Below, in pieces: positions 35,406 through 41,475 of a DNA stretch of 45,303 nucleotides (position 1 is its first letter; every line of letters begins with the position of its first letter). Position numbers and translations under genes: made by a program. The stretch spans positions 1 to 45,303 of the forward strand of contig JYFJ02003186.1 in NCBI GenBank assembly GCA_000934665.2, given 5' to 3'. A model generated the notes under the pieces. It saw only the letters and a program-made list of their open reading frames with translations, had not been told where the DNA came from and searched no databases. This DNA is from Catajapyx aquilonaris (lineage: Eukaryota).

Positions 35406-36740
35406 ATGAGTCCGTCGGCCCAGGCGATGATTCTGGCTATGCAGTTCAGCGTGATCATCTTCAGCATCTTCTGGGCTCACTATTCGACCCAGCGGGATGA
35501 CCTGGACCGTGATATTAAGCGGCTGCAGCGGCGTCGGAGGATCCTGCTGCATAGACTCACTCGGAAGCGGCCTGGATTTCAGAGGAGGTCAAATGCGAAC
35601 CTGTATTCCGCTAGAAGGATTCGTTCCTGCTGGGCTTATCCTACGACCAGTACGTTTTGGGAGAGTACTGTTCCTGAATTTTCTTCAGAGCAGTTTCATA
35701 ACGAGTTTCGAATAAGCCAACGTACTTTTGGCATCCTGTGCGAGAGACTGAAGTCGCATTTAGAGCGATCGGACACTGCAATGAGGCGGGCAGTGCCACT
35801 TGAGAAGCGAGTAGCGGTTGCTCTTACAATGCTGCATTCCAGCAGTGATTGCGGTTCAGTCGCTGAATTGTACGGCATAGGCAAGAGCACTGTGTGTTAC
35901 ATCCTGAAGGAATTTTGTGATGCCCTTCTGGATGCTGTGTATGACGAGGTGATACAGTTTCCAACCGGTGACGATCTGGAACAAGTAGTGCATGGGTTTG
36001 AGAGTGGATGGCAGTTTCCTAACTGTGCTGGAATAGTAGGTGGTGTGCATGTGCCAATTGTGTCACCATCTGACAATGCATCTGACTACCTCAACCAGAA
36101 AGGGTGGCACTCCATTGTCTTCATGGCTGTTGTTGACCATGATTACAGGTTCCGGTTCGTCAACGTCGGTCTTCCAGGCGGGTATGTATTGTCAATTTCT
36201 TTCAAACAATACTGTCTATCGCCACTATCGCTAATTGTAACAAAGACAATATTGTTCCTCAGGTACTCCAATGCTGCGGTTCTGCAAAGCACATCGCTCT
36301 ACCAACAAGGTGGGGAAGGCCAGTTGCTTCCAGAGGATTTTCATCTCCTGGGCGACACTTCCTTTCCGCTTCTTCCCTGGCTGCTGACCCCTTACCAGGA
36401 CGTCAACTTATCAGAATCTCAAGTCAACTTCAACCAGAGGCATCAGAATGCCAGAGACTCCTTGGACGGAGCAATGCTACGTCTGCATGGCCGGTGGAGG
36501 ATCTTGCTGAAAAAATGTGATATCAAACTAGAAAACATTGTGCGGGTTGTGAAGGCCTGTTGCGTGTTGCACAATATGTGCCAGGACAATGGGGATAGGT
36601 ATGATCCAAAGTGGGAGGAAGGGGCTCATCAGTTTGGGCTTATGTTCCCACAGCCGCAGGACATTCCAACCCTTTCCAGGCAGTGGAACTACAGGGCCTG
36701 GGAAAAGAGGGACGAAATTGCTCATGATCTCATGCTGTGA
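35406..36740 (+). CDS. PIF/Harbinger transposase-derived protein (HARBI1/ALP1-like, DDE_Tnp_4), 2 exons (35406-36181, 36263-36740), 417 aa, predicted nuclease-dead
   Basis: Harbinger motifs: F..EFRIS..TF..LC..L, EKRVAVAL, YGIGKSTV (HTH), FPNCAGIVGGVHVPI, YLNQKGWHS, VVDHDYRF, LLGDTSFPLLPWLLTPY, FNQRH..AR, GRWRIL, ACCVLHN. An 81-nt in-frame GTATGT...CCTCAG intron (36182-36262) explains the non-homologous insert in the 444-aa ORF call. Confidence 0.92.
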   Translation: MSPSAQAMILAMQFSVIIFSIFWAHYSTQRDDLDRDIKRLQRRRRILLHRLTRKRPGFQRRSNANLYSARRIRSCWAYPTTSTFWESTVPEFSSEQFHNEFRISQRTFGILCERLKSHLERSDTAMRRAVPLEKRVAVALTMLHSSSDCGSVAELYGIGKSTVCYILKEFCDALLDAVYDEVIQFPTGDDLEQVVHGFESGWQFPNCAGIVGGVHVPIVSPSDNASDYLNQKGWHSIVFMAVVDHDYRFRFVNVGLPGGYVLSISFKQYCLSPLSLIVTKTILFLRYSNAAVLQSTSLYQQGGEGQLLPEDFHLLGDTSFPLLPWLLTPYQDVNLSESQVNFNQRHQNARDSLDGAMLRLHGRWRILLKKCDIKLENIVRVVKACCVLHNMCQDNGDRYDPKWEEGAHQFGLMFPQPQDIPTLSRQWNYRAWEKRDEIAHDLML

Positions 36741-37206
36741 AGTCCACGCAATTGTGTTTTATGCCACGTGTGATCCGGTGAACTTTCCGACTGACTTATA
36801 GTATTTCTGTAATGATACGAACTCGTGACCCAATTTAGTGCTGTTGTCACCTGAGGTTGACTTTGTGAAACAGTCTCGGAACTAAAAACTGCAGCCTGAA
36901 AAGAAACCTGTGAACAGGTGTACTTTTCTGAGTGATAGCATAGTCATGACTAGTGTAATGAAATATTGTACAATGAATTCCTTCTGATCCATCTCTTCCT
37001 TGGAAAATTTTTCATTCTGGAGAAACCTGCATTTCTGTACAGTACCGCACATTCTGTTGTAAAGTGTATTTTTCCTCAAATGTGGAGGACATTTTCAGTA
37101 TCTTATCGAGAATATTAGATGTATGCAATGTGTTACACTGCCATACTACTGCAAAAAAAATCTGTACATGGCAATAACGTACACGTTGTAGTGAATGTTC
37201 CATTGC

Positions 37207-40700: not shown

Positions 40701-41475
40701 TTGCCGCCCCCGGGGCTCGAACCCAGGACCTCCCGATTAACAGTCGGACCCTATAGCCACTCCACCAAACTGCTTCGGTTTTTGTTGACACTGTTTACTC
40801 ATATTGTTCTGTGATGGCGTCAGATCGTTCTCTCATTTTCCGTGCATTATAGCGCAAACACATCTAAAACCATTAATGCAACAAGTGCACCAACAGTCTT
40901 AAAAATTACCGTACACAAATTTATTTTAATCCCAACCGCGACTCGTTAAATGCGCACCAATTCCCAACTACTTGTAGCTGACCCATCCCCACCACCAACA
41001 ATGAGTCTCCAGTAGCATGATCATCCCCATTACCTTGAAACCTCCCCAGCTGGTGCACAACTCATAAATCAATAATGTGGAGCAGGCCTAGATCCTAGTC
41101 TGGCCTTCCCTCCCCTCCTCCTCCTCCTCCTCCTCCTCTCCCAGCATCTCCAACATATCCGCCCCTGGTCTCATCAAACCCCCCTCCTGGGCCAACAAGC
41201 CCCTTTTTCAATAACCGCAGACCTGCAGTGAAGCTCCTCTTCAACCTGAGATACTCCGTCTTGAGATTCCTAATCTTGTTCTTGCACTCGTTCCCGTCTC
41301 TTTCGAACCCCCTCTTCTGCATGTGCCTGGCGATGTCCACCCACAGGAAGCTGTTCCTGTAGGAGCTCTCGAACCTCCTCTGGAACTCCCCGTCGCTCCA
41401 GATCTCCAGAAGAACGGCCGTCTCCTCGTGAGTGAAGTTCCTACTCCGCTTCCCTTTCCCACCGGACGCCGCCAT
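37710..41475 (-). CDS. Double Myb/SANT-like (trihelix, Myb_DNA-bind_4 type) DNA-binding protein, 4 exons (41223-41475, 39322-39417, 38973-39123, 37710-38691), about 493 aa
   Basis: Domain 1 is RSRNFTHEETAVLLEIW...LWVDIARHMQKRGFERDGNECKNKIRNLKTEY, completed by PDWLYWEKLHSVFG from exon 2. Domain 2 is RNRNFSHQETLRLLAIW...LWATIARLMKQRGYDRDANECKVKVGNLRSEY...PDWPYWDSLHGVLG. An acidic linker, Arg-rich NLS-like tract, coiled-coil-like segment and Pro-rich tail are also present. Junctions are GT-AG with consistent phases (1,1,2); the exon 2 acceptor is a CAGCAG tandem. Confidence 0.88.
39586..40139. mobile_element. MITE of the same family as 29170-30363, in intron 1 of the double-Myb gene
   Basis: Starts with CAGTTGAATCCGGATATAACAGAC (same as 29170) and ends CTGTTATATCCGGAGTCAACT. 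Confidence 0.8.
40499..40778 (-). mobile_element. tRNA-derived SINE with target-site duplication
   Basis: Minus-strand A box (TGGTGGAGTGG) and B box (GGTTCGAGCCC), with the core GGCCACAGCCGCCTCCTTCC. Flanked by the direct repeat TTTTTGTTGACACTGTTTA at 40480-40498 and 40779-40797. Confidence 0.88.

What the first reader, a model, noticed from the sequence alone, without database searches (positions are those of the whole stretch)
35406..41475. Co-domesticated Harbinger two-gene module: HARBI1/ALP1-like protein convergent with a double Myb/SANT gene
Seen: an intact Harbinger transposase-like gene (+) and an intact Myb/SANT trihelix gene (-) lie tail-to-tail about 970 bp apart, each with introns and a polyA signal. 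I found no flanking TIRs or TWA target duplication, and the transposase-like gene starts 600 bp from the WDR75 ATG. Known: autonomous PIF/Harbinger elements encode a DDE transposase plus a Myb/SANT DNA-binding protein, and domesticated pairs (vertebrate HARBI1/NAIF1, Arabidopsis ALP1/ALP2 and HDP1/HDP2, Drosophila DPLG/DPMG) exist; the plant pairs act in chromatin complexes. Inference: a whole element was immobilised in place and both genes were retained as a host heterocomplex, possibly a lineage-specific chromatin regulator. A SINE with TSD and a MITE in the Myb gene intron, with exons left intact, suggest long residence under selection.
Basis: partly seen in the sequence, partly recalled or inferred. 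Interest (0 to 1): 0.85.

Follow-up and report, generated by a model that had tools for sequence, protein, structure and literature searches.

The report
Domesticated Harbinger transposase and Myb pair
Two neighbouring genes that descend from the two genes of a Harbinger jumping element are now single-copy, expressed host genes, and the cutting enzyme has lost its catalytic residues; this is one more example of a known route to new regulators.

Summary
At 35406-36740 (+) there is an intact 417-codon DDE_Tnp_4 (PIF/Harbinger) gene with one 81-nt intron. At 41475-37710 (-) there is an intact 493-codon, four-exon gene with two Myb_DNA-bind_4 domains. The genes lie tail to tail with 969 bp between the stop codons.

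- No terminal inverted repeats flank the pair.
- Contig depth over both genes equals that of the unique flanks.
- Contigs from a second sample skip exactly the predicted introns, so both genes are expressed and spliced.
- All three catalytic positions are replaced (D>G, D>N, E>D), yet 45 of 62 other highly conserved columns are kept.
- In trees the protein groups (SH-aLRT 99) with conserved, similarly altered 'ALP1-like' genes of Daphnia and Centruroides, not with intact elements.
- The Myb gene shares its layout, a C-terminal helix and an intron position with genes of ticks and unnamed animals. One such group evolves at dN/dS 0.04-0.11.

Verdict: this is a nuclease-dead, domesticated Harbinger pair, probably old rather than lineage-specific. 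Binding between the two proteins, a chromatin role and synteny remain untested. It is a new member of a known kind (HARBI1/NAIF1, ALP1/ALP2, DPLG7/DPM7).

The parts
34686..34806 (-). First coding exon of the upstream neighbour WDR75. Its ATG at 34806 lies 599 bp from the transposase-like ATG, head to head.
   Evidence: Sequence. A later exon (32467-32664) hits human WDR75 7mq8_LH at E 1.7e-12.
34807..35405 (.). Shared 5' intergenic region. It holds an (AAT)n microsatellite at 35306-35385 and a 28-nt hairpin at 35249-35311. No TIR was found here.
35406..36181 (+). Transposase-like gene, exon 1. It encodes an N-terminal hydrophobic and basic stretch, the HTH region and the first part of the DDE_Tnp_4 domain. 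The first catalytic D is replaced by G at 36039-36041.
36182..36262 (+). 81-nt GT..AG intron. It is in frame and has no stop codon.
   Evidence: A contig of run X5 stops at 36262, and the X5 depth of bin 36159-36509 (4.96) fits exon-only cover (4.98 expected) rather than full cover (6.45). The arithmetic is mine, on the tables.
36263..36740 (+). Transposase-like gene, exon 2. The second catalytic D is replaced by N at 36270-36272 and the catalytic E by D at 36465-36467. Stop TGA at 36738-36740.
36741..37231 (+). 3' UTR of the transposase-like gene, with AATAAA at 37207-37212 and 37211-37216.
   Evidence: The X5 contig (record 28) reaches 37231.
37374..37709 (-). 3' UTR of the Myb gene as far as the X5 contig reaches. 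AATAAA on the minus strand lies at 37368-37363.
37710..38691 (-). Myb gene, exon 4. It encodes the second Myb_DNA-bind_4 domain (38552-38295), an arginine run (about 38238-38197), a conserved C-terminal helical motif (about 38150-38016) and a P/Q/S-rich tail. Stop TAA at 37712-37710.
38973..39123 (-). Myb gene, exon 3 (acidic linker).
   Evidence: The X5 depth of bin 38967-39317 is 7.55, against 7.57 expected for this exon alone.
39322..39417 (-). Myb gene, exon 2. It encodes the end of the first Myb domain, with the PPDW..W motif.
   Evidence: In X5 record 29 the 247 nt between the exon 4 and exon 1 pieces equal 151 + 96 nt.
39578..40147 (.). MITE in intron 1 of the Myb gene, with inverted ends.
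   Evidence: pairs I3, I9. Depth 2,200-8,300 against about 21-32 for unique sequence, with many internal-deletion variants.
40480..40804 (-). tRNA-derived SINE (40506-40778) with 26-nt flanking direct repeats, in intron 1 of the Myb gene.
   Evidence: D5. A and B box-like motifs are visible. Depth 40,000-113,000.
41223..41475 (-). Myb gene, exon 1. ATG at 41475. It encodes the first Myb_DNA-bind_4 domain (41442-41233). The phase-1 intron follows 'LKR' plus four residues.

Best explanation
The two genes are the descendants of the transposase gene and the Myb-like gene of one PIF/Harbinger element. They no longer belong to a mobile element and are kept as ordinary host genes.

The transposase-like protein keeps the family's fold-defining residues but has G, N and D in place of the catalytic D, D and E, so it can hardly cut DNA. 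I infer that it serves as a non-catalytic partner or scaffold.

The Myb protein has two trihelix domains with their conserved tryptophans, so it should bind DNA. It also has an arginine run that could serve as a nuclear import signal, and a conserved C-terminal helix. In other Harbinger pairs the C-terminal part of the Myb protein holds the transposase-like partner.

The likely working unit is a nuclear heterocomplex in which the Myb protein brings the dead transposase to specific DNA sites to regulate transcription or chromatin.

Shown here: gene integrity, splicing and expression, loss of the catalytic residues, no TIRs, no near-identical extra copies, and kinship with conserved host genes of other arthropods. 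Inferred: origin from one insertion, binding between the two proteins, nuclear import and a regulatory role.
For: Domains: DDE_Tnp_4 at 88.3 bits and Myb_DNA-bind_4 twice.

Catalytic columns: the query has G-N-D, while 69 of the 120 listed homologues have D-D-E. The query keeps 45 of the 62 columns that are at least 85% conserved among those 69 rows. The 17 changed columns include all three catalytic ones and their neighbours.

No TIRs.

Copy number, DNA runs X1-X3: one 4,248-nt contig covers 35394-39610 without a difference. Depth over both genes (about 21, 31 and 25) equals that of the flanks, while the MITE and SINE bins are 100 to 3,500 times higher. Contigs from 85% likeness were laid.

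Expression, run X5 (another sample and study): a 1,815-nt contig joins 37374-38691 to 41223-41472 with 247 nt in between. That equals exon 3 plus exon 2 (151 + 96 nt). A 1,167-nt contig runs from 37231 to the intron acceptor at 36262. Five bin depths fit exon-only cover to within 0.02 (my arithmetic).

Trees: the query groups with Centruroides (2 species) and Daphnia (3 rows) at support 99 in FastTree (114 rows), in IQ-TREE LG+C20 (40 rows), and again after 41 catalytic and signature columns were dropped. Holding the query with its most similar intact rows is rejected (lnL lower by 57.4, p-AU 0.0007). D2>N and Y>F of the GDxAYP motif are shared by all three lineages. The Daphnia gene falls in one 90%-identity cluster across four species.

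Myb gene: collinear with the unnamed double-Myb protein P0125 (304 aa, 37% identity, E 5e-57). The C-terminal motif recurs in 11 proteins of 5 clusters among the 184 tested, one of them Ixodes scapularis LOC8028162. The phase-1 intron sits at the same place in L005. Relatives L001-L004 give dN/dS 0.044-0.113 in 6 of 6 pairs.

Literature: co-domestication from one insertion is an explicit model (PMC9710019, sections read). The C-terminal part of ALP2, HDP2, NAIF1 and Ping Myb binds the partner (PMC7282668, passages).
Against: - No whole genome is held. Diverged copies (under 85% likeness) and TIR-bearing relatives elsewhere cannot be excluded, and contig depth is not a formal copy number.
- No synteny and no dN/dS for these two genes themselves. 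The nearest transposase-like relatives are only 36-40% identical, and no close orthologue was found.
- The clade joins three long branches (0.87, 1.29, 1.32), so long-branch attraction is not fully excluded. The AU group was named after the tree was seen.
- The library type of run X5 is not on record ('?'). Expression rests on that one run.
- The short contigs that carry relatives of the Myb gene show no transposase-like gene. The best tblastn E-value was 0.36 on L001-L008, and at most 1.5 kb of downstream flank was available. Linkage is therefore not shown elsewhere.
- The two Myb domains are about as similar to each other (52%) as to either domain of P0125 (43-54%), so one-to-one orthology of the domains is unclear.
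- E>D is conservative and might still bind a metal ion.
Confidence: 0.72

Rival explanations
1. Two separate host genes that merely lie side by side. Both would be old Harbinger-derived genes taken up from different insertions or brought together later, and they would work independently of each other.
For: Both families look old and occur in other animals. Contigs with relatives of the Myb gene show no neighbouring transposase-like gene. Markova et al. note that partners can be domesticated from separate insertions or can drift apart.
Against: A DDE_Tnp_4 gene and a Myb_DNA-bind_4 gene 969 bp apart is exactly the gene content of one Harbinger element. Chance adjacency of the two rare gene types is unlikely. 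The flanks searched were very short (at most 1.5 kb).
Confidence: 0.15
2. A solitary, immobilised Harbinger copy that is decaying neutrally. Its two reading frames would still be open by chance.
For: No TIRs and no catalytic triad, as in a dead element. No dN/dS is available for these genes.
Against: The protein differs from the nearest intact transposases at about 60% of residues. Even so, 417 and 493 codons are free of stops and frameshifts, splice sites are intact, and 45 of 62 conserved columns are kept. Both genes give spliced transcripts. The nearest kin are genes conserved across Daphnia species. A SINE and a MITE landed only in an intron.
Confidence: 0.08
3. A still mobile autonomous element with unusual or very short ends.
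For: It has the two-gene content of an autonomous element.
Against: The G-N-D triad. No inverted ends above chance. Depth equal to the unique flanks and no second contig at 85% likeness or more. The gene starts 599 bp from the ATG of a housekeeping gene.
Confidence: 0.02

Closest known systems
Insect co-domesticated PIF pairs: DPLG7-DPM7 (Drosophila), APLG1-APM1 and APLG2-APM2 (Anopheles), LPLG2-LPM2 (Lepidoptera). Markova et al. 2022, PMC9710019.
   Same: A transposase-derived gene and a Myb/MADF-derived gene lie next to each other, without TIRs or TSD and with intact ORFs. They are read as one insertion turned into two host genes (sections read).
   Different: In my trees the nearest kin are crustacean and scorpion genes, and the one Anopheles row (P0101) lies elsewhere. 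The partner here has two Myb domains. The paper's main text mentions neither Daphnia, crustaceans nor chelicerates.
Vertebrate HARBI1 / NAIF1
   Same: A Harbinger transposase-derived protein and a Myb-like partner. The partner's C-terminal part binds HARBI1 and brings it into the nucleus, as cited in PMC9710019 and PMC7282668. The original paper, Sinzelle et al. 2008, was not read.
   Different: Rows that carry the automatic name 'putative nuclease HARBI1' fall in other clades. HARBI1 and NAIF1 were reported only in jawed vertebrates (PMC9392472, passage). This window has CpG o/e 0.69, unlike vertebrate DNA (the vertebrate value is recalled). Whether HARBI1 and NAIF1 are adjacent was not checked. 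Here the two genes are.
Arabidopsis ALP1 / ALP2 and HDP1 / HDP2
   Same: The transposase-derived partner is not known to act as a nuclease. The Myb partner binds it through a C-terminal conserved region and links it to a chromatin complex: PRC2 through MSI1, or a histone acetyltransferase complex.
   Different: Plant rows form the outgroup of my trees, so these are independent domestications. According to the paper, ALP2 has lost the conserved tryptophans. Both Myb domains here keep them (sequence). No chromatin partner is known here.
Uncharacterised 'ALP1-like' genes of Daphnia (P0009 cluster) and Centruroides (P0005 cluster), and Ixodes scapularis LOC8028162 (P0149 cluster)
   Same: These are the nearest relatives found. 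They form a clade with the query at support 99 and share D2>N, Y>F and a roughly 10-residue deletion. The Ixodes protein shares the layout of Myb domain, basic patch and C-terminal helix.
   Different: Identity is only 36-37% for the transposase-like protein and about 40% for the Myb domain. The Ixodes protein has one Myb domain. Their genomic neighbourhoods could not be seen. No paper on them turned up in my searches.

Membership tests
Autonomous PIF/Harbinger transposon | DDE_Tnp_4 transposase gene plus a second gene for a Myb/SANT/trihelix protein | tested here: met
   Pfam PF13359 at 88.3 bits; PF13837 at 63.9 and 60.9 bits.
Autonomous PIF/Harbinger transposon | Intact D-D-E catalytic triad | tested here: not met
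   G, N and D at the three columns; 69 of 120 homologues have D-D-E.
Autonomous PIF/Harbinger transposon | Terminal inverted repeats with a 3-bp TWA target duplication | tested here: not met
   No inverted pair across the flanks. The best inverted alignment was reached by 47 of 200 and 54 of 200 shuffles. Without ends, a TSD cannot be placed.
Autonomous PIF/Harbinger transposon | Several similar copies in the genome | tested here: not met
   Contig depth equals that of the unique flanks, and no further contig of 85% likeness or more was laid on the genes in X1-X3. Caveat: no whole genome is held, and depth is not a formal copy number.
Domesticated PIF/Harbinger gene pair (criteria as used in PMC9710019) | Intact ORFs, no TIR or TSD, transposase-derived and Myb-derived genes adjacent | tested here: met
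Domesticated PIF/Harbinger gene pair (criteria as used in PMC9710019) | Expression | tested here: met
   Spliced contigs of both genes in run X5. The run's library type is not on record.
Domesticated PIF/Harbinger gene pair (criteria as used in PMC9710019) | Purifying selection (dN/dS below 1 among orthologues) | tested here: inconclusive
   There are no orthologues close enough for these genes. Indirect evidence: relatives of the Myb gene (L001-L004) give dN/dS 0.044-0.113, and the Daphnia kin lie within one 90%-identity cluster over four species.
Domesticated PIF/Harbinger gene pair (criteria as used in PMC9710019) | Same genomic position in several species (microsynteny) | not testable with these tools
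   No eukaryote genomes are held.
Vertebrate HARBI1 | Groups with HARBI1 orthologues in a tree | tested here: not met
   Rows named 'putative nuclease HARBI1' (P0074, P0051) lie in another clade. The names are automatic, and no curated HARBI1 was included.
Plant ALP1 | Groups with plant ALP1-type proteins; part of PRC2 | tested here: not met
   Plant rows form a separate clade or the outgroup. PRC2 association is not testable here.
Myb_DNA-bind_4 (trihelix) proteins | Pfam PF13837 above its cut-off | tested here: met
   Two domains, E 1.8e-17 and 1.6e-16.
NAIF1 / MSANTD family | Orthology to a vertebrate MSANTD or NAIF1 gene | not tested
   Only a feature-based lead to an 'MSANTD1 family' cluster, score 0.91.

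The most novel reading that the evidence does not exclude
The locus preserves, still physically linked, an ancient co-domesticated Harbinger pair. Its transposase-derived half would already have been nuclease-dead before chelicerates, branchiopod crustaceans and this animal's lineage split. Its double-trihelix half would be the cognate DNA binder. Together they would be a so far undescribed, widely conserved arthropod (or wider) chromatin or transcription regulator, comparable to ALP1/ALP2, and the oldest linked pair of this kind in animals.
Probability: 0.25. Interest if true: 0.7.

Novelty: new member of a known kind. Interest (0 to 1): 0.5.

Why it matters
Co-domestication of both Harbinger genes is a recurring way in which genomes gain regulators: HARBI1/NAIF1, ALP1/ALP2 in PRC2, HDP1/HDP2, and several insect pairs. 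This locus adds a clean, still-adjacent example outside insects, plants and vertebrates.

It has a fully substituted catalytic triad and a two-domain Myb partner. It also points to relatives in Daphnia, scorpions and ticks that nobody seems to have described. If the pair proves conserved and interacting, it would support the 'same insertion' model. It would also offer a tractable system (Daphnia) for asking what a dead Harbinger transposase does in animals, a question still open even for HARBI1.

Tried and rejected
- **Whole-genome search for copies:** no genome is held for this window.
- **Myb exon 4 in the search for homologous proteins:** none of the 8,000 scored candidates passed, probably because the P, R and S runs supplied the search words. 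The search of protein representatives on the 197-aa core replaced it.
- **A WDR75 exon searched with lengths 'longer', to place the organism:** 5 candidates, none significant. CpG o/e 0.69 and the arthropod kin only suggest an invertebrate.
- **A first WDR75 exon against PDB:** only generic WD40 hits. A second exon gave WDR75.
- **The look-up of sequencing runs:** no RNA holder listed.
- **Complex prediction:** the full transposase-like ORF was paired with residues 145-250 of Myb exon 4. The verdict was 'no answer' (median 0.33 against the mark of 0.34; three controls at 0.00). My alignments were not used. This counts neither for nor against binding.
- **Earlier findings of this scan:** nothing by place, sequence or words.
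- **Rfam on the window:** only one tRNA-like match, at 44521-44578.
- **Protein atlas:** generic DDE_Tnp_4 and Myb_DNA-bind_4 clusters only.
- **Transposase-like gene next to relatives of the Myb gene on metagenome contigs L001-L008:** none found (best E 0.36), but the flanks are at most 1.5 kb and L001-L004 look like transcripts.
- **Polymorphism-based selection test:** the listed X5 pieces show 0 differences, so there is nothing to count.
- **Considered and rejected:**
  - Orthology to HARBI1 or ALP1, because of the tree.
  - An active element, because of the triad, the ends and the depth.
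Full report
**What is there**

The window is eukaryotic DNA. CpG o/e is 0.69, which is not vertebrate-like; the vertebrate value is recalled, not measured here.

On the + strand an ATG at 35406 opens a frame to TGA at 36738-36740. 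An 81-nt GT..AG intron (36182-36262) interrupts it. The intron is in frame and has no stop. The unspliced frame matches Pfam DDE_Tnp_4 at 88.3 bits against a cut-off of 24.8, in two stretches on either side of the intron.

On the - strand a four-exon gene runs from ATG 41475 to TAA 37712-37710. Its exons are 41475-41223, 39417-39322, 39123-38973 and 38691-37710. All junctions are GT..AG and all phases fit. Exon 1 and exon 4 each carry a Myb_DNA-bind_4 domain (E 1.8e-17 and 1.6e-16).

The stops lie 969 bp apart, tail to tail. AATAAA signals lie at 37207-37216 (+) and 37368-37363 (-).

The gene upstream on the - strand is WDR75. One of its exons hits human WDR75 (7mq8_LH) at E 1.7e-12. Its first-exon ATG (34806) lies 599 bp from the transposase-like ATG.

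**Not a mobile element**

The repeat finder found no inverted pair that joins the two outer flanks. A local alignment of 34807-35405 against the reverse complement of 41476-42400 scored 24, a value reached by 47 of 200 shuffles. Without the (AAT)n run it scored 23, reached by 54 of 200.

No whole genome is held, so I laid contigs of four public runs on 33000-43500.
- In the three DNA runs of one sample (X1-X3), one 4,248-nt contig covers 35394-39610 with no difference.
- The depth over both genes (about 21, 31 and 25) equals that of the WDR75 side and of 41424-43500, although contigs from 85% likeness were accepted.
- The MITE bins reach 2,200-8,300 and the SINE bins 40,000-113,000.

The tool warns that contig depth is not a formal copy number.

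**Expressed and spliced**

Run X5 comes from another sample and study, and its library type is not on record. It holds a 1,815-nt contig whose bases 1-1318 lie on 37374-38691 and whose bases 1566-1815 lie on 41223-41472. The 247 nt in between equal exon 3 (151 nt) plus exon 2 (96 nt) of my model.

A 1,167-nt contig runs from 37231 to 36262, which is the intron acceptor of the transposase-like gene, and has 196 nt more.

The bin depths fit cover of exons only:

| Bin | Observed | Expected for exon-only cover |
|---|---|---|
| 36159-36509 | 4.96 | 4.98 |
| 38616-38966 | 3.8 | 3.81 |
| 38967-39317 | 7.55 | 7.57 |
| 41073-41423 | 10.1 | 10.08 |
| 41424-41774 | 2.45 | 2.46 |

The expected values are my arithmetic on the tables. 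If the intron in bin 36159-36509 were covered, its depth would be 6.45.

The DNA runs carry the intron-containing form. So both genes give spliced transcripts in at least one sample. Contigs cannot give transcript ends or expression levels.

**Catalysis is gone, the rest is kept**

The search for homologous proteins gave 232 hits at E of 0.001 or lower, of which 120 were listed. The best is 40% identical.

In an alignment of those 120 with the spliced protein, 69 rows have D-D-E at the three catalytic columns. The query has G (36039-36041), N (36270-36272) and D (36465-36467).

Among the 62 columns that are at least 85% conserved in the 69 intact rows, the query keeps 45. The 17 changed columns include the three catalytic ones, the H before the second D, and the AY of GDxAYP.

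A copy decaying neutrally to about 60% amino-acid difference would not keep 417 codons open, its splice sites intact and its core residues in place.

**Kin**

Three trees put the query with Centruroides (P0005, P0305) and Daphnia (P0009, P0306, P0307) at support 99. The sister group is made of D-D-E-intact tick and dipteran rows.
- FastTree, 114 rows. Seven rows under 320 aa were dropped.
- IQ-TREE LG+C20, on 40 rows that I chose.
- The same 40 rows with 41 columns around the catalytic and signature motifs removed.

A tree that holds the query with its most similar intact rows (P0001-P0003) is worse by 57.4 lnL, p-AU 0.0007. That group was named after the tree had been seen.

The three lineages share D2>N, Y>F and a deletion of about ten residues before the GD motif.

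The Daphnia protein falls in one 90%-identity cluster in D. magna, D. pulex, D. carinata and D. sinensis. The scorpion protein is found in two Centruroides species. These are therefore conserved host genes, named 'ALP1-like' only by automatic annotation.

The branches are long (0.87-1.32), so attraction between them is not excluded.

**The Myb partner**

The first search, with the whole of exon 4, failed. A full HMMER search with its 197-aa core gave 996 hits at E of 0.001 or lower.

P0125 is an unnamed 512-aa protein. It is collinear with the whole spliced protein: two Myb domains (residues 10-302 against 34-305, 37% identity, E 5e-57) and a C-terminal part (346-465 against 389-500).

After the second domain come a basic patch (here eight arginines) and a helical motif. 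Among the 184 proteins I tested, the motif recurs in 11 proteins of 5 clusters at E below 0.01. One of these is Ixodes scapularis LOC8028162.

A metagenome contig (L005) that carries a relative has a phase-1 intron at the same place as the exon 1/2 junction here, after 'LKR' plus four residues and even with the same GCAG|GT.

Four relatives of 77-100% identity to P0156 (L001-L004) give dN/dS of 0.044-0.113 in all six pairs. dS is 0.58-2.7, so only the closest pair is unsaturated.

None of the eight contigs shows a transposase-like gene (best E 0.36), but their flanks are at most 1.5 kb.

**How it probably works**

In the pairs studied so far, the Myb-derived partner binds DNA. It also binds the transposase-derived partner through its C-terminal region: ALP2, HDP2, NAIF1 and Ping Myb (passages of PMC7282668). 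In addition it brings the partner into the nucleus (Background of PMC9710019; Sinzelle et al. 2008 itself was not read).

By analogy, I expect the two trihelix domains to bind DNA and the arginine run to serve nuclear import. I expect the C-terminal helix to hold the dead transposase, which would then act as a scaffold in a regulatory or chromatin complex. None of these steps was shown here.

**Comparison and novelty**

Co-domestication of both Harbinger genes from one insertion is an explicit, repeatedly documented model: four insect pairs, HARBI1/NAIF1, ALP1/ALP2 and HDP1/HDP2. The finding is therefore a new member of a known kind, not a new kind.

Three things are new:
- The place outside insects, plants and vertebrates.
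- The complete G-N-D replacement combined with a double-Myb partner.
- The hint that the gene family is old and shared with crustaceans and chelicerates.

I found no paper on such a family. The Markova main text mentions neither Daphnia, crustaceans nor chelicerates. Its supplementary tables were not opened and might list such hits.

**Verdict**

- Observation: confirmed.
- Domestication: well supported (0.72).
- Heterocomplex and chromatin role: plausible but untested.
- Interest: moderate (0.5).

Noticed in passing
window 11917-13872 (-): Two long exons of a divergent alpha-tubulin gene. The 238-aa piece hits alpha-tubulins in PDB at E about 1e-126.
   Followed up: partly
window 26116-27183 (-): A 355-aa open frame within the WDR75 region, ending in tandem acidic repeats (DDLADKTG..TV..DETVAP). 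No family was sought.
   Followed up: no
proteins P0029, P0031, P0040, P0046, P0055, P0069 (teleosts); P0039, P0041, P0045 (cypriniform and gymnotiform fishes); P0034 cluster (three lizards); P0096 cluster (two alligators): Several other clades of DDE_Tnp_4 proteins with replaced catalytic residues (G-S-D, G-H-D, G-E-D, G-D-E) are conserved across species and mostly named 'uncharacterized'. They may be further unnamed domesticated Harbinger transposases in vertebrates.
   Followed up: partly
window 35249-35311 and 35306-35385: A 28-nt hairpin (82% paired, 7-nt loop) lies directly upstream of an (AAT)n run of about 26 units that ends 20 nt before the transposase-like ATG. The upstream frame would read the run as poly-Asn, but it has no ATG.
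   Followed up: no
window 33000-34052: Repeated sequence in a WDR75 intron. Contig depth is 860-3,400 against about 21-34 for unique DNA.
   Followed up: no
window 44521-44578 (+): A partial tRNA-like match (Rfam tRNA, 38.3 bits, model positions 8-63). It may be the head of another SINE copy.
   Followed up: no
proteins P0121-P0124, P0126-P0128: The strongest hits of the Myb search are very long proteins (853-2,166 aa) with 6-8 Myb_DNA-bind_4-like stretches each. Their sources are not known.
   Followed up: no
window 39578-40147: The MITE family shows many internal-deletion variants in the DNA runs, with joints skipping 110-475 nt.
   Followed up: no
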